The notes under the pieces are model-generated. The model saw only the letters and a list, made by a program, of their open reading frames with translations. It searched no databases and was not told the origin of the DNA. Shown piece after piece: positions 14,348-25,279 of a DNA stretch of 25,279 bases. The position numbers were made by a program, and so were the translations under genes. Origin of the DNA: Pseudomonadota bacterium (GTDB lineage: Bacteria; Pseudomonadota; Alphaproteobacteria; RF32; CAG-239). Each line of letters starts with the position of its first letter. Position 1 is the stretch's first letter. The stretch is taken from contig CAKJXZ020000067.1 in the NCBI GenBank assembly GCA_918234285.1, positions 1-25,279 of the forward strand. The letters run 5' to 3'.

Positions 14348-14432
14348 TGGTGCGGATAAAGAGACTTGAACTCTTACGCCTTGCGGCACCAGATCCTAAG
14401 TCTGGCGTGTCTGCCAATTCCACCATATCCGC
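14348..14432 (-). tRNA. tRNA-Leu (anticodon TAG)
   Basis: Minus strand GCGGATATGGTGGAATTGGCAGACACG-CCAGA-CTTAGGA-TCTGG, long variable arm, GTTCAAGTC T-loop, TATCCGC-A-CCA; 85 nt. Confidence 0.96.
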
Positions 14433-18314: not shown

Positions 18315-18333
18315 GCGACAGTGAAAACAAACC

Positions 18334-18631
18334 GTCATTCTGAATGTAATATAAAAATAGTCATCCCTCGAAGTGCACAAAAACAAACCGTCATCCCTCG
18401 AAGTGCACAAAAACAAACCGTCATCCCTCGACCTGTGCTGTGCATCAGGTCGTCAAGGGATCTTATCTTTGCGAAGCGCAAATTATATATGTGAATCGGA
18501 AGCAATGCTGTCGCATTGAAAGGTCAGATACCTTGACGCACGGACACGCAGTGCCGTGCGAGGTATGACAATATTTTTTTTCAGTGCCGTGCGAGGTATG
18601 ACAATGATATTTTACCGTTACTTAAAATGAC
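18334..18631 (+). repeat. Palindromic repeat cluster A: left half-units (18334 degenerate, 18360, 18390), full element 18420-18569, right half-units (ending 18602 and 18631, the latter degenerate)
   Basis: Exact 30-bp duplication GTCATCCCTCGAAGTGCACAAAAACAAACC x2; the full element matches copies at 22209, 23435, 24729 and 24960. Confidence 0.93.
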
Positions 18632-18670
18632 AACTTTGATACTCGTGAAAATATTTTTGTCAAAAAATGA

Positions 18671-18698
18671 TTGACAATGCGGATTGATGTGGTATGCT
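18671..18698 (+). promoter_or_regulatory. Putative strong sigma70 promoter for 18750
   Basis: TTGACA-16 nt-TATGCT with TG extended -10. Confidence 0.65.
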
Positions 18699-18749
18699 TA
18701 AAATATTCAAGAGATTATTCAGATAGATATTCACAAAAATCCATACATT

Positions 18750-19670
18750 ATGAAAGAAAATCATACTAAGTACATTTGGCCGGTAGAAGCACCGTTCAGG
18801 ATTGCCTACCGTGACCCGCTGTCCGGAGTTATGACGTTGCTTCCTTATGTTGACCTCCAGTGGAAGATGAAAATCTGGGGAGTGTCAGTCGAGGAGCGCG
18901 TTTATAAGCTTACGCACGAGCCGGGTGCCGATTGGTTTAAGGCCAAGGGCTATGTCGACAAGCTTTGTCAGGGCTATATGCCGAATACCGATGATTTGGA
19001 TACGGCATTTGCCTATAAAGAGGGGTTTAACGAAATCGTCGAATTCCTCAAGTCCAAAAAGATTGTCGCCGAGCCGTGGAACGATGGTTGGTATTGGAGT
19101 ACTGAGGAAGAAGCCGACAATGCGGCAGTGGTTGATATGGCCACCGGCAGGGCTGAGCTGATTGATAAAAAAATCAAAAACGGCTATACCCGTCTTGTCA
19201 GTCGCCGTATTACCGACAAAACTCCCGGTGTACATTACCCGTTGGTTTATTTTGACGAGGGCATTTTCAAAATCTCTTATGATTTGATTTTGTCACGCAA
19301 AGACCAGTTGTGGGGTATCCAATCGGGCAAAAACTACTTCTGTCTGCGCGAGGAAAAGCCGCAGAACTGGTATCAGGCTAAAGCCGCAGCCGAGAAAATG
19401 TCTAACGATTTGGTGCGCATTTCGCTGCCCAAAAAGGAGATGTTTGACGAGCTGAGGCGTGAGCGTGAGGCTGTCAACGATGCGTTGATGAAACTCCAAG
19501 CTTTCGGAATTGCAACCGACTTGTGGCTCGATAAGTCTTGGGGCTATTTGACCGCTTCGGAGTATCTCGACCATTATGTTACCTGTGAACACGAGATGAT
19601 TCCGAAAAGCGAGGTAAATCCGTGTCGTTTTATCGGTGAAAACCGCAGACACCACACAGTATTGCTGTAA
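18750..19670 (+). CDS. Hypothetical protein with two tandem DUF1566/C-type-lectin-fold-like domains
   Basis: Two internally homologous halves: WG[VI]...W[FY].AK...[ML]P...W...(W)YWS/GYLT...R[LF][VI]. Fold assignment is by eye. Confidence 0.6.
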   Translation: MKENHTKYIWPVEAPFRIAYRDPLSGVMTLLPYVDLQWKMKIWGVSVEERVYKLTHEPGADWFKAKGYVDKLCQGYMPNTDDLDTAFAYKEGFNEIVEFLKSKKIVAEPWNDGWYWSTEEEADNAAVVDMATGRAELIDKKIKNGYTRLVSRRITDKTPGVHYPLVYFDEGIFKISYDLILSRKDQLWGIQSGKNYFCLREEKPQNWYQAKAAAEKMSNDLVRISLPKKEMFDELRREREAVNDALMKLQAFGIATDLWLDKSWGYLTASEYLDHYVTCEHEMIPKSEVNPCRFIGENRRHHTVLL

Positions 19671-19678
19671 ATTATAAC

Positions 19679-19716
19679 AAATCCTTCAAAAACGAGTTGT
19701 TTTTGGAGGATTTTTT
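19679..19716 (+). terminator. Intrinsic terminator
   Basis: AAATCCTTCAAAAAC / GTTTTTGGAGGATTT stem running into a T-tract. Confidence 0.75.
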
Positions 19717-19746
19717 ATTTATAGTGCCGGTTAAGGGGAGAAAATT

Positions 19747-20958
19747 ATGCAAATAAGTGCGAAATATCAGGCAGTGTTGGAAATCTTGGAAAAAGTACTG
19801 CAAGACCAGTATCCGGCCGATAACATCATCAAAGAATACGTGCGGGCGCGTAAATACATCGGCTCCAAAGATCGCAAGTTTATCATCAACACGGTGTGGG
19901 ATATCATTCGTCATCGCAGCCGGTTGGAATTTGATTGCGGTTGTTGCGAGGCGCGAATGTTGCTGTTGACCTATCTCAAAGATGAGGATTTCGATATTGT
20001 GGCCGACGGTTCGGAATACGGCTTAAAACCGCTCGATAAGCTCGAAAAAGAAAAACTGGCGCACTTAAATCCGGAAGTTTATCCGGAAAATATCGAAAAC
20101 GAATGCCCGAAATGGCTGTATGAAAAAATCAACAACCCGGCATTGGCGGCGGCGCTTAATACCACGGCTTCGGCCGATATCAGAGCCAATTTTATCTCGC
20201 GCGAAGATGCCAAAAACAAGTTGCAAAAAGAGGGGTTTTTCTTTTCGTTTACGCCATATTCGCCGTACGGGTTGCGTTCGGACGAGCGGATTAATTTGCA
20301 GAATTGCGTTGTTTATCAAAACGGCGAAATCGAGGTGCAGGATGAGGCGTCGCAACTGGGAGCGATTTTGTGCGATGTGCGTGCCGATTTGAAAATCATC
20401 GATTATTGTTGCGGCGGCGGAGGTAAAAGTATGATGCTCGGCGCATTGCTCAACAATAAAGGTACGATTTTTGCCCACGATAAAAACGTTAAGCGGATGG
20501 ACGGGTTACATGATCGGGCGGCGCGGCTCGGCATTAAAAACATTAAGATAATCGATGCGCTTAAACCGGCGGATTTGTACGATAGGTTTATCGTTGATGC
20601 GCCTTGTTCGGGCAGCGGAACCTGGCGGCGTTCGCCTGATGCCAAATATCGGCTGACTCCGAAGCAGTTAAAGGCAATCGAGCAGGCACAGGAAGAAATT
20701 TTGGAGATTGCCGCCGCACACCTGAGCGATAAGGGGCGGATTGTGTATATGACCTGTTCGGTGTTGCCGGAAGAAAATGAGGGGCAAATGGAGCAATTTT
20801 TGGCGGCTCACCCCGATTTTATGACGGTGGATATGCAAAAATTGTGGGAACGCAAGCTGGAAATGCCGTATCCGTTTAACGAAACGCGTTGGCTTAAATG
20901 TTCGCCGCTGACCACCGGTACCGACGGCTTTTTCGTTTGCGTTTTGCAACGGAAATAA
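19747..20958 (+). CDS. RsmB/NOL1/NOP2/Sun-family RNA m5C methyltransferase
   Basis: QDEASQL, DYCCGGGGKS, VDAPCSGSGTWRR and YMTCS (both catalytic Cys motifs present). Confidence 0.92.
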   Translation: MQISAKYQAVLEILEKVLQDQYPADNIIKEYVRARKYIGSKDRKFIINTVWDIIRHRSRLEFDCGCCEARMLLLTYLKDEDFDIVADGSEYGLKPLDKLEKEKLAHLNPEVYPENIENECPKWLYEKINNPALAAALNTTASADIRANFISREDAKNKLQKEGFFFSFTPYSPYGLRSDERINLQNCVVYQNGEIEVQDEASQLGAILCDVRADLKIIDYCCGGGGKSMMLGALLNNKGTIFAHDKNVKRMDGLHDRAARLGIKNIKIIDALKPADLYDRFIVDAPCSGSGTWRRSPDAKYRLTPKQLKAIEQAQEEILEIAAAHLSDKGRIVYMTCSVLPEENEGQMEQFLAAHPDFMTVDMQKLWERKLEMPYPFNETRWLKCSPLTTGTDGFFVCVLQRK

Positions 20959-20985
20959 CGTAATCCGCAAGGTAAAAAATAGCGC

Positions 20986-21014
20986 TTGCAATCGGCGGGA
21001 TAATTGTTTATAAG
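20986..21014 (+). promoter_or_regulatory. Putative promoter of ychF
   Basis: TTGCAA-17 nt-TATAAG. Confidence 0.5.
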
Positions 21015-21047
21015 AGGTACAATTTAATAATTTGCGGAGTAAGAAAA

Positions 21048-22157
21048 ATGGGTTTTAATTGCGGAATTGTCGGCTTGCCGAATGTGGGAAAATCTACTTT
21101 ATTCAATGCGTTAACGCAAACAATCGCGGCACAGGCGGCAAACTTTCCGTTTTGCACGATTGAGCCGAATACCGGTCGGGTGGCGGTGCCGGATAAGCGT
21201 TTGGATAAGCTGGTGGAGATGGTGCAACCGAAAAACATTGTGCCGACACAGCTGGAATTTGTGGATATTGCCGGTTTGGTGAAGGGCGCGTCGAAGGGCG
21301 AGGGGCTGGGCAACCAGTTTTTGGCAAACATCCGCGAAACCGACGCGATTATCCATGTTTTGCGCTGCTTTGAAGACGATAACATCACCCACGTTGAGGG
21401 CAGTGTCGATCCGGTGCGCGATGCCGATATCGTGAAGACCGAGCTGATGATTGCCGATTTGGAATCGCTGGAAAAACGCATTGAAAATCTGCGTAAAAAA
21501 GCCAAGGCCGGCGACAAGGAATCTGCAGTCAGCGTGCGGGTTATCGAGCCGATTATCGAGGCCTTAAAACAAGGCAAACCGGCGCGTTCGGCGGCTCCGG
21601 ACGAGGCGGACAAAGAGGCATATAAGTGCTATAAAATGTTGCAACTGCTGACCTCTAAGCCGGTGTTGTACGTGTGTAACGTTGATGAAAGTTCGGCGGC
21701 CAGCGGCAACGAATTCTCCAAGGCCGTAGAAAAAATGGCAAAAGAAGAAGGAGCCGAGAGCGTGGTAATTTCCGCCGAAATTGAGTCCGAAGTGGCACAA
21801 CTGGAAAGCGAAGAAGAAAAGACCGAGTTTTTGTCGGCTCTGGGGCTGGAAGAAACCGGCTTGGCCAAGATTATTCACGCCGGATATAATTTGCTCAGTT
21901 TGCAAACATATTTTACCGCCGGACCGAAAGAAGTGCGGGCCTGGACGTTTGTTAAGGGGATGAAAGCGCCGCAATGCGCCGGTATAATTCACTCCGATTT
22001 TGAGCGCGGCTTTATTCGGGCGGAAACGATTTCGTATGATGATTACGTTAAATTCGGCGGCGAACAGGGGTGTCGCGATGCCGGTAAAATTCGCTCCGAA
22101 GGCAAAGAATATCAGGTGCGTGACGGCGATTTGATGAACTTCTTGTTCAATGTATAA
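21048..22157 (+). CDS. ychF: Ribosome-binding ATPase YchF
   Basis: GIVGLPNVGKSTLFNALT, ANFPFCTIEPN, DIAGLVKGASKGEGLGNQFL and IHSDFERGFIRAE motifs. Confidence 0.98.
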   Translation: MGFNCGIVGLPNVGKSTLFNALTQTIAAQAANFPFCTIEPNTGRVAVPDKRLDKLVEMVQPKNIVPTQLEFVDIAGLVKGASKGEGLGNQFLANIRETDAIIHVLRCFEDDNITHVEGSVDPVRDADIVKTELMIADLESLEKRIENLRKKAKAGDKESAVSVRVIEPIIEALKQGKPARSAAPDEADKEAYKCYKMLQLLTSKPVLYVCNVDESSAASGNEFSKAVEKMAKEEGAESVVISAEIESEVAQLESEEEKTEFLSALGLEETGLAKIIHAGYNLLSLQTYFTAGPKEVRAWTFVKGMKAPQCAGIIHSDFERGFIRAETISYDDYVKFGGEQGCRDAGKIRSEGKEYQVRDGDLMNFLFNV

Positions 22158-22172
22158 GGCGAAAAAAATAAT

Positions 22173-22402
22173 GTCATCCCTCGGTCTGCGCGGTGTAAAA
22201 AATAAACCGTCATCCCTCGAGGTGCGCGGTGCGTCACCTCGTCAAGGGATCTTGTCTTTGCGAAGCGCATATTATGTGAATCGGAAGTGGCACTTGCGTG
22301 CCAGAAGTCGAGATACCTTGACGCACGAATGCACCGCATCGTGCGAGGTATGACAATAATATTTTCTGACGCACGAACACACCGTGCCTCCTCGGAAGGA
22401 TG
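22173..22402 (+). repeat. Palindromic repeat cluster B: left half-unit 22173-22195, full element 22209-22354, decayed hairpin 22367-22402
   Basis: Same architecture as cluster A with compensatory stem changes; lies between convergent ychF and ldh. Confidence 0.93.
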
Positions 22403-22405
22403 TTT

Positions 22406-23344
22406 TTATATCATCGACAAGGCTTTATCGGTATATTCCTTCATGGTTTCGGCGCTCTTACGCAGTTTGGCGTGTTCTTCGGCGTTGAGCTTCGGTGTAA
22501 TCACATGATGAATGCCGCGACGGGTAATCACGGTCGGCAACGAAAGGCATACTTCCTTAACCCCCTCAACCTCGGCATGATGCGATGACAAAGTTAAAAT
22601 CGAATAATCGTTGTTGCCGATGGCGCGGCAGATTTGCGTCAATGCACCGGCAATACCGTAGCAGGTGGCGCCTTTGCCGGCGATGATTTGATAGGCGGCA
22701 TTGACAACACCGTCGTTGATTTCGGCCTTTTTGGCTTCGTCGAGAGTTTTGCCCACGTCGGCGGCATATTCTTCGAGCGTCAGCGTTCCGGCTTCGGCAT
22801 TAGACCAAACCAAGACTTCGCTGTCGCCGTGTTCGCCCAAAACGTCAGCGTGTACGGATTTGGTGGAAACGCCCAAGAAAAAGGCCAAGAGCGTTCTGAA
22901 ACGCGCCGTATCCAACACCGTGCCGCTACCGATGACGCGTTCTTTCGGGAATCCGGAAAGTTTGAGCGCAACCTCGGTCATAATGTCGGCCGGGTTGGCG
23001 GTAATCAGCAAAATACAATCCGGCGCATATTTCACGATTTGCGGAATGATATCGGCAAAAATTTTGACGTTGCGACCGAGCAAATCGATTCTGGTTTCGC
23101 CCGGTTTTTGGTTAGCTCCGGCGGTAACGATAACGATGCTGCAATCCTTCAAGTCGGCATAAGTACCGGCCTTGATTTTGCCGGCATTGGCAAACGGCGC
23201 GGCATGTCCGATATCGCTGGCTTCGGCCAGGGCTTTTTGCTCGTTGGCGTCGATTAAGACTATCTTATGCGCCACTCCGGTCATCATCAGCGAAAATGCG
23301 GCCGCACTTCCAACGGCACCGGCTCCGATAATTCCTATTTTCAT
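22406..23344 (-). CDS. ldh: NAD-dependent L-lactate dehydrogenase
   Basis: GAGAVG Rossmann motif, TAGANQKPGETRIDL (Gln at the specificity position, i.e. LDH rather than MDH), SGTVLDTARFR and GEHGDS. Confidence 0.93.
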   Translation of the reverse strand: MKIGIIGAGAVGSAAAFSLMMTGVAHKIVLIDANEQKALAEASDIGHAAPFANAGKIKAGTYADLKDCSIVIVTAGANQKPGETRIDLLGRNVKIFADIIPQIVKYAPDCILLITANPADIMTEVALKLSGFPKERVIGSGTVLDTARFRTLLAFFLGVSTKSVHADVLGEHGDSEVLVWSNAEAGTLTLEEYAADVGKTLDEAKKAEINDGVVNAAYQIIAGKGATCYGIAGALTQICRAIGNNDYSILTLSSHHAEVEGVKEVCLSLPTVITRRGIHHVITPKLNAEEHAKLRKSAETMKEYTDKALSMI

Positions 23345-23434
23345 ATTTTTTCTCCCACAAAATTAATTTCTTCCGCATATCTATACTTTTTTTACACAAA
23401 AGCAAGATTTTTTTGATAAAATAGTGAATAAGAT

Positions 23435-23764
23435 GTCATCCCTTGAAGTGCGCTGTGTGTCACTTCGTCAAGGGAACTCATCTTTGCGAAGCGCATTATT
23501 CTGGGTGAATCGGAAGCAATGCTATTGCATTGAAAGGTCAGATCGCTGGACGACTTGAGGCACAGCCCAAGTCGAGCGATGACAATAAAAACAACCTGTC
23601 ATCCTGAACGAATGTGAAGGATCCAGCTACACCCTTGGTGTTGTTCGTTCCGGCGGAACGAATGGATACTTCGGCTTTGCCTCAGTATGACAATAATATT
23701 TTTCGCGCAGCCTAAGTCGAGCGATGACAATAATATTTTTTCACAGTGCCGTGCGAGGTATGAC
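23435..23764 (+). repeat. Palindromic repeat cluster C: full element 23435-23583, family-2 element 23598-23691, right half-units 23704-23728 and 23742-23764
   Basis: Direct sequence match to the other clusters; lies between divergent ldh and ybaK. Confidence 0.93.
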
Positions 23765-23788
23765 GATAAAGTACAAAAAGGATAAAAA

Positions 23789-24271
23789 ATGCTGAAAACC
23801 AATGCCATGCGCATAATCGAAACCGCCAAAATACCGTACCGCGCCTATGAGTGGGAGCCGGTTAACGGGCTTGAGGCGAGTGTGGTTGCCTCGTATTTGG
23901 GGCAGCCGGCGGAGCAGGTTTTTAAAACGTTGATAACCGAATCGCCGACGGCTCAGCACGGCTTTGAACACTATGTTTTTGTGGTGCCGGCCAACAAAGA
24001 TTTGGATATGAAAAAAGCGGCGCAAGCGGCGGGGGTAAAAAGCGTCGAGATGCTACCCTTAAAAAAGCTGTTGCCGCTGACGGGGTATATTCATGGCGGC
24101 TGTTCGCCGGTGGGGCTGAAAAAGGCGTTTCCGGTGTTTATTGACGAGACAGCGATTTTGTTTGACACGTTTTTCATCAGCGGCGGCAAAGTGGGGCTGA
24201 CTCTGGAGCTCAACGCCGAGGCGTTAGCGGCGGCCATCGGTGCCCAATTTGCCGACTTAACGCAAGATTAA
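23789..24271 (+). CDS. ybaK: Cys-tRNA(Pro) deacylase YbaK/EbsC
   Basis: KTNAMRI, QVFKTL, LTGYIHGGCSPVG and ISGGKVGL motifs. Confidence 0.93.
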   Translation: MLKTNAMRIIETAKIPYRAYEWEPVNGLEASVVASYLGQPAEQVFKTLITESPTAQHGFEHYVFVVPANKDLDMKKAAQAAGVKSVEMLPLKKLLPLTGYIHGGCSPVGLKKAFPVFIDETAILFDTFFISGGKVGLTLELNAEALAAAIGAQFADLTQD

Positions 24272-24275
24272 GACA

Positions 24276-24563
24276 ATGAAGGCAATGTATGTTTACATTT
24301 TGACCGGCAAGAGTAACTCCACGTTTTATGTTGGTGTAACCAGTGATTTGCCGCGGCGGGTGTGGGAGCATAAAAACAAGCTGTATGACGGCTTTACTGC
24401 CCGCTATAATCTGAACAAACTGGTGTATTATGAGGTTTATGATGACGAACTCACGGCAATTGCACGTGAAAAGACGCTGAAGAAGTGCTACAAAAAGACT
24501 AAACGCCAGTTGATAGAGGCGAAAAACAAGAATTATGACGATTTGTACGATACGCTGGTATAA
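24276..24563 (+). CDS. Small stand-alone GIY-YIG nuclease-family protein, 95 aa
   Basis: YVYIL...FYVGVTSDLPRRVWEHK...GFTARY...LVYYE...AIAREK.LK: GIY and YIG motifs plus catalytic Arg and Glu. Confidence 0.92.
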   Translation: MKAMYVYILTGKSNSTFYVGVTSDLPRRVWEHKNKLYDGFTARYNLNKLVYYEVYDDELTAIAREKTLKKCYKKTKRQLIEAKNKNYDDLYDTLV

Positions 24564-24578
24564 CAATAAACACAAACC

Positions 24579-25279
24579 GTCATCCCTTGCGGTGTGCGAT
24601 AATAACCTGTCATCCCTCTCGCAGTATAAAAACAACATGTCATCCCTTGCGGTGTGCGATAATAACCTGTCATCCCTCTCGCAGTATAAAAACAACATGT
24701 CATCCCTTGCGGTGTGCGATAATAACCTGTCATCCCTCGAAGTGCGCTGTGCGTCACTTCGTCAAGGGAACTCATCTTTGCGAAGCGCATTATTCTGGGT
24801 GAATCGGAAGCAATGCTGACGCATTGAAAGGTCAGATACCTTGACGCACGGACACACAGTGCCGTGCGAGGTATGACAATAATATTTTTTCGCAGTGCCG
24901 TGCGAGGTATGACAATATTTTTCACAGCCCAAGTCGAGCGATGACGATAAACATAAGATGTCATCCCTCGAAGTGCGCTGTGCGTCACTTCGTCAAGGGA
25001 ACTCATCTTTGCGAAGCGCAAATTATGATGGAATCGGAAGCAATGCTGTCGCATTGAAAGGTCAGATCGCTGGACGACTTGAGGCACAGCCCAAGTCGAG
25101 CGATGACGATAATTTTTTCGCACCGCGCAGACCAAGGTATGACAATATTTTTCACAGCCCAAGTCGAGCGATGACAATAAAAACAACGTCATCCTGAACG
25201 AATGTGAAGGATCCAGCAACACCCTTGGTGTTGTTCGTTCCGGCGGAACGAATGGATACTTCGGCTTTGCCTCAGTATG
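24579..25279 (+). repeat. Palindromic repeat cluster D, running off the window: five 30-bp left half-units, full elements 24729-24877 and 24960-25107, four right half-units, family-2 element from 25188
   Basis: GTCAT starts at 24579, 24609, 24639, 24669, 24699, 24729, 24960 and 25188; ATGAC ends at 24877, 24913, 24945, 25107, 25143 and 25175. Confidence 0.95.

What the first reader, a model, noticed from the sequence alone, without database searches (positions are those of the whole stretch)
18420..25107. 43-bp bulged hairpin conserved in structure, not sequence: extensive compensatory covariation
Seen: ten complete copies (two per full element) fit one template, written in right-end orientation: GAT-xxx-T-[TGA/GGA bulge]-CG-yyyyy-[A bulge]-zzz-(ACA/ACC/GCA loop)-zzz'-yyyyy'-CG-A-xxx'-ATGAC. 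Left-end 5-bp stems are ACCTG/CAGGT (18420), AGGTG/CACCT (22209) and AAGTG/CACTT (23435, 24729, 24960). Right-end stems are CACGG/CCGTG (18527, 24835), CACGA/TCGTG (22312) and ACTTG/CAAGT (23541, 25065). The outer triplet varies CCC/GGG, ACC/GGT, CGC/GCG; the apical stem varies TGC/GCA, CGC/GCG, CAC/GTG, GGC/GCC. Length, bulge positions and the ATGAC tag stay fixed. Inference: a protein reads a folded single strand through extrahelical bases, as integron integrase does with attC sites.
Basis: seen in the sequence. Interest (0 to 1): 0.8.

Follow-up and report, generated by a model that had tools for sequence, protein, structure and literature searches.

The report
Bulged-hairpin repeat family in rumen Alphaproteobacteria
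A roughly 148-base intergenic repeat in uncultured rumen bacteria ends in two hairpins whose shape, bulges and end tag are kept while the stem letters change in matched pairs, much like the REP/REPIN repeats of other bacteria, but no enzyme that handles it was found.

Summary
The five elements and ten 43-nt hairpins sit at the stated coordinates. The 2.0-Mb genome holds 37 such hairpins, of which 28 are distinct. 99.2% of stem positions pair, and 12 of 14 pairs show compensatory changes. Sliding the partners drops pairing to 28-48%. A scan of about 185,000 species genomes that left 11 stem pairs free gave 73 distinct hairpins, 96.4% paired, with 29 stem versions. Nearly all come from uncultured rumen or gut Alphaproteobacteria. 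The T bulge is invariant, and the 3-nt bulge is TCA, or less often TCC.

The element resembles a REPIN/BIME: hairpin, 62-nt centre with two small hairpins, inverted hairpin. It is always intergenic and is missing at orthologous sites in sister species. About 30 half-hairpin stubs, broken near the loop, flank the elements. G·T wobbles outnumber A·C mismatches on the 5'-GTCAT strand at both ends, so a single transcript across the element cannot be the selected form.

The attC analogy holds only loosely. There is no integron integrase, and each end folds on itself. No Y1/RAYT, TnpB, IS110 or DDE transposase was found either. The partner and mechanism remain unknown.

The parts
18420..18569 (+). 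Full element e1. Left hairpin 18420-18462, centre with two small hairpins, right hairpin 18527-18569.
   Evidence: Fold as ssDNA gives -38.4 kcal/mol, z -6.1, four hairpins.
18360..18419 (+). Two 30-bp units, each the outer half of a left hairpin (AAGTG type) followed by an 11-nt A-rich spacer. A shorter GTCAT stub of the second repeat family precedes them at 18324.
   Evidence: A near-identical strain has one unit fewer (30 letters left out at 18360 in runs X3 and X4).
18582..18602 (-). Outer-half stub of a right hairpin (CACGG type), lying after a T-rich spacer.
22173..22195 (+). Outer-half stub (GTCTG type) upstream of e2.
22209..22354 (+). Full element e2, between ychF and mdh (convergent genes).
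   Evidence: In another strain 74 other letters replace 22157-22408. In two sister species this spacer is 97 bp with an ordinary terminator-like hairpin.
23435..23583 (+). Full element e3, in the divergent mdh/ybaK promoter region.
   Evidence: The whole repeat cluster of about 330 bp (23435-23764) is missing at the orthologous site of G007 and G009.
23598..23690 (+). Second repeat family, 93 bp, with ends GTCATCCTGA...TCAGTATGAC.
   Evidence: Six copies of 92-93 bp in the genome, plus shorter matches.
23704..23764 (-). Two outer-half stubs of right hairpins (23704-23728 and 23742-23764), each with a T-rich spacer.
24579..24728 (+). Array of five 30-bp half-hairpin units of two alternating types (GCGGT and TCGCA), in the order A-B-A-B-A.
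24729..24877 (+). Full element e4.
24891..24945 (-). Two outer-half stubs of right hairpins (24891-24913 and 24923-24945).
24960..25107 (+). Full element e5.
25119..25175 (-). Two outer-half stubs of right hairpins (25119-25143 and 25153-25175).
25188..25279 (+). Second copy of the 93-bp repeat, cut by the contig end. Contig C33 starts with the same repeat.

Best explanation
This is a lineage-specific, non-autonomous mosaic repeat of the REP/BIME/REPIN kind. Its anatomy is a 43-nt bulged hairpin, a centre of about 62 nt with two small hairpins, and a second hairpin in inverted orientation.

Shown:
- The hairpins are maintained as structures.
- The bulges and the GTCAT tag are fixed.
- The element is gained or lost between species and strains.
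- It sits only between genes.
- Truncated copies break near the hairpin loop.

Inferred:
- At each end, the strand that reads 5'-GTCAT inward folds as single-stranded DNA.
- A structure-specific DNA enzyme recognises it through the extrahelical bases and the tag, as a RAYT does with REPs or TnpA with IS608 ends, and moves or processes the element.
- Cutting or stalling at the hairpin tip leaves the half-hairpin stubs, which then vary in number by slippage.

The enzyme was not identified. It is not any of the usual transposase families in this genome.
For: Structure conservation:
- 99.2% paired with 12/14 compensatory pairs in 28 distinct own-genome hairpins.
- 98.4% paired with 13/14 compensatory pairs in 113 distinct hairpins of relatives.
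- 96.4% paired in 73 distinct hairpins picked without regard to pairing.
- The centre hairpin also switches between CAATG/CATTG and TGGCA/TGCCA, with all 5 pairs changed on both sides.

Bulges: T in 73/73, and TCA/TCC/TCG in 64/8/1.

Strand asymmetry is mirrored at the two ends. On the GTCAT strand the left hairpins show 10 G·T against 3 A·C, and the right hairpins 11 against 2. These come from 43 elements chosen by frame only. In the own genome the count is 11 against 0.

Mobility or instability:
- The cluster is absent at orthologous mdh-ybaK and ychF-mdh spacers in G007 and G009.
- 74 other letters replace the e2 spacer, and there is one 30-bp unit fewer, in contigs of other samples.

Distribution:
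- 15 of 24 other species of the genus have the hairpin, and 0 of 16 genomes of other families of the class.
- 78 of the 80 listed stretches of the scan of 185,579 species are rumen or gut Alphaproteobacteria MAGs.
- All 16 clusters in this genome are intergenic.
- About 30 stubs all keep the outer arm and end at hairpin positions 16-25.
- One hairpin in a relative is a chimera of two types joined at the loop.
Against: No enzyme was found.
- Own genome (100% complete by markers, 71 contigs): no Y1_Tnp, TnpB (36), IS110 (37), rve (59), DDE_Tnp_1 (60) or Transposase_31 (62).
- Genus: Y1_Tnp occurs in 19 of 50 genomes, but none of 16 Y1 loci has a hairpin within about 1.5 kb.
- Among the 24 species scored for both, substantial Y1 matches occur in 3 of 15 hairpin-positive and 4 of 9 hairpin-negative genomes.
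- No Y1 homologue lies in 160 hairpin-bearing loci totalling 1.05 Mb.

Other gaps:
- No longer element with these ends around a gene was seen.
- No clear target-site duplication; the flanks are merely A-rich on one side and T-rich on the other.
- Copy number is modest, 37-39 hairpins.
- The G·T excess is weaker in the pattern-defined set of relatives, 22 against 13. Copies are also related, so no real significance test is possible.
- No new insertion was observed directly.
Confidence: 0.5

Rival explanations
1. RNA-level role. Each hairpin acts on transcripts that run into the element from the neighbouring gene, as a terminator or as a 3'-end hairpin that protects the upstream mRNA, as has been proposed for E. 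coli REPs. Spread would then be a separate matter.
For: The mirrored G·T excess fits RNAs entering from either side, since these read 5'-GUCAU at whichever end they meet first. A U-rich stretch follows each hairpin on the inside (CTTATCTTTG). The elements are intergenic only. In G000 the e2 cluster takes the place of the ordinary terminator-like hairpin that sister species have after ychF.
Against: 3 of 14 classifiable clusters lie between divergent genes, where no transcript enters. The simple terminator scan does not flag the hairpins. Invariant bulges, an invariant unpaired tag and half-hairpin arrays are not needed for a terminator. No RNA data could be laid.
Confidence: 0.2
2. The complementarity is a by-product of DNA mechanics. 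In near-palindromes, template switching during replication copies a change in one arm into the other. Matched changes would then arise without selection, and the hairpin would have no reader.
For: This rests on established knowledge of quasi-palindrome template-switch mutation (recalled, not looked up). The stubs and the 30-bp copy-number change show that replication errors do occur here.
Against: Template switching should also erase the bulges. Yet the T bulge is kept in 73/73 and the 3-nt bulge in all (also invariant columns). The unpaired GTCAT tag is invariant. G·T exceeds A·C on one strand.
Confidence: 0.12
3. Ordinary MITE moved by a DDE transposase that reads the ends as double-stranded DNA. 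The conserved part (A-rich stretch, GTCAT, first stem bases) is the real terminal repeat. The stubs are extra or leftover binding sites, and the internal palindrome is incidental.
For: The ends are inverted and share a 43-bp frame. A second, unrelated 93-bp repeat has the same GTCAT...ATGAC termini and the same A-rich/T-rich flanks. The terminal 30 bp occur as tandem units.
Against: No rve or DDE_Tnp_1 gene is in the genome. No target duplication was seen. A double-strand reader does not explain covariation of 13 of 14 pairs, or the strand asymmetry.
Confidence: 0.1
4. attC-like site of an integron-type system, recombined by a tyrosine recombinase on a folded strand.
For: Structure is kept rather than sequence, and extrahelical bases sit at fixed places. 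The genome has 12 matches to tyrosine recombinases.
Against: No integron integrase: best 82.8 bits against a cut-off of 265, and the two best places are the same two frames of 312 and 314 aa that score highest for the general Phage_integrase family; I take them for XerC/XerD-type recombinases by length only, since no call names them. Each end folds alone, and left and right ends share only 24-34 of 43 letters. There are no cassette arrays, and neighbours are housekeeping or surface-protein genes in both orientations. Only 5 of 160 hairpin loci hold a recombinase homologue, at 0.65 kb to more than 5 kb away.
Confidence: 0.03

Closest known systems
REP / BIME / REPIN repeats with their RAYT (Y1 HUH) transposase
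   Same: Imperfect palindrome of about 40 nt with a bulge. A short invariant tag at the 5' foot of the hairpin (GTAG there, GTCAT here; the GTAG is recalled). Pairs in inverted orientation around a spacer. Intergenic only. Mosaic arrangements with partial copies. Stem changes that keep pairing. Doublet structure, RAYT and typical abundance are as in the abstracts of PMC3337134, PMC3116915 and PMC2817692 (listing and abstract starts only).
   Different: No RAYT or other Y1 gene in this genome, and none next to hairpins in the genus. The tag differs. There are 37-39 hairpins rather than the >100 copies per genome that PMC2817692's abstract gives as usual. The spacer is long (62 nt) and itself structured. 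Arrays of half-hairpins have no counterpart that I know of.
IS200/IS605 ends and their miniature derivatives
   Same: Ends that work as folded single-stranded hairpins with an extrahelical base read by the transposase (recalled knowledge of IS608).
   Different: In that family both hairpins lie on the same strand and there are no inverted ends (recalled). Here the ends are inverted, and the favoured strand flips between them. No TnpA or TnpB was found.
Integron attC sites
   Same: Structure is conserved and sequence is not. Extrahelical bases sit at fixed positions. The site is read as a folded single strand (abstracts of PMC3053210 and PMC5027507, listing only).
   Different: An attC is one long hairpin made by the two halves of the site. 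Here each end is its own hairpin. There is no IntI and no cassette array.
Neisseria Correia elements and intergenic mosaic elements (recalled)
   Same: Elements of about 100-150 bp with inverted ends, mosaic arrays, and frequent placement beside surface-protein genes.
   Different: No sequence likeness was tested. Those elements are not known for bulged end hairpins with covarying stems. This comparison rests on memory only.

Membership tests
Integron attC site | An integron integrase gene (IntI, NCBIfam TIGR02249) in the genome | tested here: not met
   best match 82.8 bits, cut-off 265. The best places are the two highest-scoring general tyrosine-recombinase frames (312 and 314 aa). The assembly has 71 contigs, so absence is not proven.
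Integron attC site | The two halves of the site pair with each other into one long imperfect hairpin | tested here: not met
   each end folds on itself; left and right ends agree at only 24-34 of 43 positions, and 0 of 43 elements have the same stem at both ends.
Integron attC site | Extrahelical bases at fixed positions in the folded strand | tested here: met
   the 1-nt bulge T is invariant, and the 3-nt bulge is TCA/TCC/TCG.
Integron attC site | Same-orientation sites, each following a promoterless cassette ORF | tested here: not met
   the elements lie between housekeeping genes in tandem, convergent and divergent settings.
REP/BIME/REPIN with RAYT | Imperfect palindrome with a conserved short tag at its 5' foot | tested here: inconclusive
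   An invariant tag exists (GTCAT in 37/37, and part of the pattern). It is not the GTAG of known REPs (recalled).
REP/BIME/REPIN with RAYT | Inverted doublets separated by a spacer, intergenic | tested here: met
   43 distinct full elements of 139-150 bp after orientation by the centre motif, out of 47 found; 16 of 16 clusters are intergenic.
REP/BIME/REPIN with RAYT | A cognate Y1 transposase (RAYT) gene, usually single copy and flanked by the repeats | tested here: not met
   none in the own genome; found in 19/50 genomes of the genus, with no positive link to hairpin presence; 0 hairpins in 16 Y1 loci; no Y1 homologue in 160 hairpin loci.
REP/BIME/REPIN with RAYT | High copy number (usually over 100 per genome) | tested here: not met
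   37-39 hairpins in 2.0 Mb. Relatives have 0-34. Draft assemblies undercount repeats.
IS200/IS605-derived miniature elements | Both end hairpins on one strand, no inverted ends, TnpA (and often TnpB) in the genome | tested here: not met
   the ends are inverted; no Y1_Tnp and no TnpB zinc-ribbon domain.
Classical MITE of a DDE insertion sequence | Terminal inverted repeats | tested here: met
   both ends fit one 43-nt frame in inverted orientation.
Classical MITE of a DDE insertion sequence | Direct target-site duplication | tested here: inconclusive
   the flanks are A-rich on the left and T-rich on the right, with no recognisable direct repeat. The empty sites in sister species are too diverged to fix the junctions.
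Classical MITE of a DDE insertion sequence | A full-length parent element with the same ends and a transposase gene | tested here: not met
   no rve, DDE_Tnp_1 or Transposase_31; apart from the 118-150-bp elements, the only plus/minus pairs are 3.7 and 5.6 kb apart; the 3.7-kb pair in L097 has further, weaker hairpin matches between its members, and I did not examine the genes inside either pair. Only six transposase families were tested.
Intrinsic terminator | G+C-rich stem followed at once by a run of U | tested here: inconclusive
   the scan flags none of the ten hairpins as a whole. A U-rich stretch does follow on the inner side, and a T run lies about 9 nt beyond the outer side.

The most novel reading that the evidence does not exclude
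The hairpins are the substrates of an undescribed structure-specific DNA enzyme that belongs to none of the known transposase or integron-integrase families. At both ends of the element it reads the bulges and the GTCAT tag on the strand with its 5' end at the terminus, and it cuts at or near the hairpin tip. That would account for the half-hairpin stubs, the loop-joined chimera, and the shared termini of two unrelated repeat families. It would be a new way of moving or reshuffling short DNA modules, possibly tied to the surface-protein genes that often lie beside them.
Probability: 0.15. Interest if true: 0.8.

Novelty: new variant of a known kind. Interest (0 to 1): 0.55.

Why it matters
Structured intergenic repeats such as REPs are common, but their origin and handling are understood only where a RAYT is present. 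Here the structural signal is unusually clean: more than 140 distinct hairpins, about 98% paired, with fixed bulges and tag. The family sits in small genomes (1.1-2.0 Mb) that appear to lack the usual transposases. It also shows break points at the hairpin tip and a strand preference that flips between the two ends. If an enzyme is behind it, these genomes are a good place to find a new single-strand DNA recombinase or nuclease. If not, the family is a natural test of how far replication mechanics or RNA-level selection alone can preserve DNA hairpins. In practice, these repeats break rumen metagenome assemblies: contigs end in them.

Tried and rejected
- Rfam: no family matches the region. 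The only window hits are a tRNA and one chance-level match.
- My first pattern was one base out of register and found only 3 sites. It was replaced by scripts.
- GIY-YIG gene beside the array as a possible partner: its homologue is in only 1 of 80 hairpin loci, so I dropped it.
- Multi-copy gene families of the genome: I checked eight members of the larger families against Pfam, and none is a transposase. Six are transporters, glycosidases, a nucleoside deoxyribosyltransferase-like protein and similar; two have no Pfam match, one of them from the 29-member family.
- Recurrent neighbours of hairpins in relatives: type IVb pilins and other surface or housekeeping proteins, with no recombinase.
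- Tyrosine recombinases and Y1 proteins against 160 hairpin loci: a few scattered recombinase hits, nothing recurrent.
- Viral contigs: 0 matches.
- Same stem at both ends: 0 of 43 observed, but only about 1.5 expected by chance (my arithmetic), so no claim is made.
- RNA evidence: no RNA holder was listed. Reads were laid on four DNA contig sets.
- The 909-bp skip at 24278-25186 rests on a 22-letter side and is only a hint. Other joints are repeat-mediated joins.
- Literature: one search for miniature inverted-repeat elements, Alphaproteobacteria and rumen listed nothing relevant among the 8 of 787 papers shown. This is not proof that the family is undescribed. No paper was read beyond the listing and abstract start, and supplements were not consulted.
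- Structure prediction, complex prediction, the protein-atlas tool and the large protein searches were not used, because there was no candidate protein.


Full report
**What is in the window.** The window is a whole 25,279-bp contig (C67) of a 2.0-Mb, 71-contig, 43% G+C draft genome. Between 18.3 kb and the contig end lie five copies of a 146-150-bp element, at 18420, 22209, 23435, 24729 and 24960. All five sit in spacers between ordinary genes. The genes are a radical-SAM/BATS protein, a 306-aa protein of unclear family, RsmB-like methyltransferase, YchF, malate/lactate dehydrogenase, a YbaK-type editing protein and a small GIY-YIG protein. Each element reads: 43-nt hairpin, about 62-nt centre, then the same kind of hairpin inverted.

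**Is the covariation real?** BLAST with the five elements found 22 full or partial elements in the genome. A template scan found 37 hairpins and one chance hit, which I dropped. Every hairpin of the BLAST-found elements is in that set, so the pairing filter removed no real copy. On the 28 distinct sequences:
- 99.2% of 392 pair cells form a standard pair.
- 12 of 14 pairs have a change on both sides.
- No shuffle of 500 reaches the observed pairing or covariation score.
- Sliding the 3' partners by 1-3 columns gives 28-48% paired.
- RNAalifold predicts the same fold, plus a T-A pair that extends the outer stem.

**Relatives and distribution.** A covariance model built from these hairpins finds 39 sites in the genome. 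It also finds sites in 15 of 24 other species of the same genus, and in none of 16 genomes of other families of the class. For a set not chosen by pairing, I scanned one genome for each of 185,579 species with a pattern of 19 fixed letters that leaves 11 stem pairs free.
- 92 stretches matched, and 80 are listed.
- 78 of the 80 are uncultured rumen or gut Alphaproteobacteria MAGs, some of them titled 'proteobacterium' or 'Rhodospirillaceae'.
- One is a Planctomycetota soil MAG whose match pairs at only 6 of 11 positions, so it is a chance hit.
- One is a Bacteroidales MAG from goat abomasum whose hairpin scores the same as one from an Alphaproteobacteria MAG. It is probably a mis-binned contig (inference).
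- The 73 distinct 43-mers are 96.4% paired at the free positions and carry 29 different 7-nt stem arms.
- The 1-nt bulge is T in all 73. The 3-nt bulge is TCA in 64, TCC in 8 and TCG in 1.

The model-fitted alignment of 150 matches from these loci (113 distinct) is 98.4% paired, with 13 of 14 pairs compensatory. Viral contigs gave no match. Metagenome contigs gave 81 stretches.

**Anatomy of the whole element.** Folded as single-stranded DNA, either strand gives four hairpins, with z-scores of -5.4 to -7.1 against shuffles. In 43 distinct, oriented full elements, the second centre hairpin switches between CAATG/CATTG and TGGCA/TGCCA, with a few more versions, and all five of its pairs change on both sides. 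The first centre hairpin (GCG-NAG-CGC) hardly varies, so it says nothing either way. Stem versions are modules: seven occur at left ends in some elements and at right ends in others. No element has the same version at both ends, but only about 1.5 such cases are expected by chance.

**Which strand folds?** G·T wobbles are tolerated in a hairpin, and the same change appears as A·C on the other strand. On the strand that reads 5'-GTCAT inward:
- The own-genome set has 11 G·T and 0 A·C.
- The 43 elements, chosen only by their frame, have 10 against 3 at left ends and 11 against 2 at right ends.
- The pattern set of relatives has a weaker excess, 22 against 13.

So the favoured strand is the top strand at the left end and the bottom strand at the right end. 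One RNA running across the element cannot be the selected molecule. Two readings fit. The first is a DNA process that treats the two ends as equivalent, as in inverted REP doublets. The second is RNAs that enter from either flank. Copies are related, so these counts are not independent.

**Gain, loss and breakage.** In sister species G007 and G009, the mdh-ybaK spacer aligns on both sides but lacks the cluster of about 330 bp (e3, the 93-bp repeat and two stubs). Their ychF-mdh spacer is 97 bp with an ordinary terminator-like hairpin, against 254 bp here. Contigs from two samples of another study were about 96% identical across the flanking genes. They carry 74 other letters in place of 22157-22408. 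A contig with no other differences lacks one of the two 30-bp units at 18360.

The genome has about 30 stubs. Each starts with GTCAT, continues through the outer arm, stops at hairpin positions 16-25 (around the loop), and is followed by an A-rich stretch of about 11 nt. The stubs lie outside the ends of full elements, often in tandem with a 30-bp period. Their stem versions may differ from that of the adjacent full hairpin. One hairpin in a relative joins the 5' arm of one version to the 3' arm of another at the loop. Relatives and metagenome contigs also show other forms:
- shorter right hairpins that keep the outer frame and 3-nt bulge;
- same-orientation arrays with periods of 120-145 bp;
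- very short GTCAT stubs.

I cannot derive one mechanism from these forms. Together they point to breakage or stalling at the hairpin tip, and to slippage of terminal units.

**Search for a partner.** The own genome has no match to Y1_Tnp, the TnpB zinc ribbon, IS110, rve, DDE_Tnp_1 or Transposase_31. It has 12 tyrosine-recombinase matches, none of which is an integron integrase, and one reverse transcriptase far from any hairpin. The genome is 100% complete by marker genes, but it is a draft in which repeats break contigs, so absence is not proven.

Y1_Tnp occurs in 19 of 50 genomes of the genus. Among the 24 species scored for both features, substantial matches are in 3 of 15 hairpin-positive genomes (G009, G011, G021) and 4 of 9 hairpin-negative genomes (G012, G015, G017, G018). 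Sixteen Y1 loci contain no hairpin. 160 hairpin loci (1.05 Mb) contain no Y1 homologue, and only five hold a recombinase homologue, 0.65 kb to more than 5 kb from the hairpin. The only plus/minus hairpin pairs wider than 150 bp are 3.7 and 5.6 kb apart, and I did not examine what lies inside them. The GIY-YIG gene next to the array recurs in only 1 of 80 loci.

**Setting.** All 16 clusters in the genome are intergenic. Of the 14 that can be classified, 9 lie between tandem genes, 2 between convergent genes and 3 between divergent genes. Neighbours are often surface-protein genes, though this was not tested against a background:
- two Opacity-like outer-membrane barrels;
- three paralogous giant proteins with clusters just upstream;
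- type IVb pilin paralogues in 8 of 80 loci of relatives;
- BspA-type leucine-rich-repeat proteins beside two metagenome arrays.

**Comparison with known systems.** The closest match in behaviour is REP/BIME/REPIN: tagged imperfect palindromes in inverted doublets, intergenic and mosaic (abstracts seen). It fails the defining RAYT test. attC sites share only the principle of a structure with extrahelical bases read on a folded strand (abstracts seen). The architecture, the integrase and the cassette context are not met. IS200/IS605 ends share the folded-strand principle but not the inverted arrangement. I therefore file this as a new variant of the structured intergenic repeat kind, with its handling enzyme unknown.

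**Verdict.** The probability that a structure-specific DNA enzyme reads these hairpins is about one half, and the rest is shared among an RNA role, replication mechanics and an ordinary double-strand transposase.

Noticed in passing
window 23598-23690 and 25188-25279; also C33:12-104, C43:6998-7090, C65:38619-38711, C12:30764-30856: A second repeat of 93 bp, unrelated inside, has the same GTCAT...ATGAC termini and the same A-rich/T-rich flanks. It folds with z about -5. Shared termini suggest that the same agent handles both families.
   Followed up: partly
window 24276-24563 (+); paralogue at G000:C49:10481-10753: A 95-aa GIY-YIG protein lies directly before the half-hairpin array. Its 57%-identical paralogue lies about 2.2 kb from another element. 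Contigs of another strain may skip 24278-25186, but the shorter side of that joint is only 22 letters.
   Followed up: partly
G000:C12:31724-45169, C51:3022-21108, C33:547-2991: Three related giant open frames (4481 aa, 6028 aa and one cut by the contig end) each have a repeat cluster just upstream of their start. C33 begins with the same 93-bp repeat that ends the window, so it may continue it.
   Followed up: no
L090, L094, L110, L115, L120 and others (relatives): Tandem paralogues of type IVb pilin (PilS/Bundlin domains) have hairpins between or beside them in 8 of 80 loci. Two Opacity-like outer-membrane proteins (C1:44889-45578, C49:8321-8923) and two BspA-type LRR proteins (L198, L230) also neighbour the repeats.
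   Followed up: partly
L107:6755-6797: This hairpin's 5' arm belongs to one stem version and its 3' arm to another. The two are joined at the loop, so only 6 of 11 free pairs form.
   Followed up: no
G011 (several contigs), G009, G021: In G011, six of seven matches to a Y1 transposase carry an in-frame TAA (the longest frames are 166 aa). G009 and G021 have copies with TAA or TAG. This could be decay or recoding. They are not next to the hairpins.
   Followed up: no
G000:C27:9733-10341 (-): This is the only reverse-transcriptase match in the genome (366-aa frame). It lies about 5 kb from a tyrosine recombinase match on the same contig. Its type was not determined.
   Followed up: no
window 18750-19670 (+): A 306-aa protein directly downstream of element e1 has only a weak, sub-threshold match to the Lcl C-terminal domain and no paralogue in the genome.
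   Followed up: partly
window 22366-22390: Just right of e2 lies a fragment resembling the inner arm and tip of a right hairpin (CACGA type) without its outer arm. Not all remnants are outer halves.
   Followed up: no
window 14351-14432 (-): A tRNA gene (Rfam, 58.4 bits) lies between the trigger-factor and RF3 genes.
   Followed up: no
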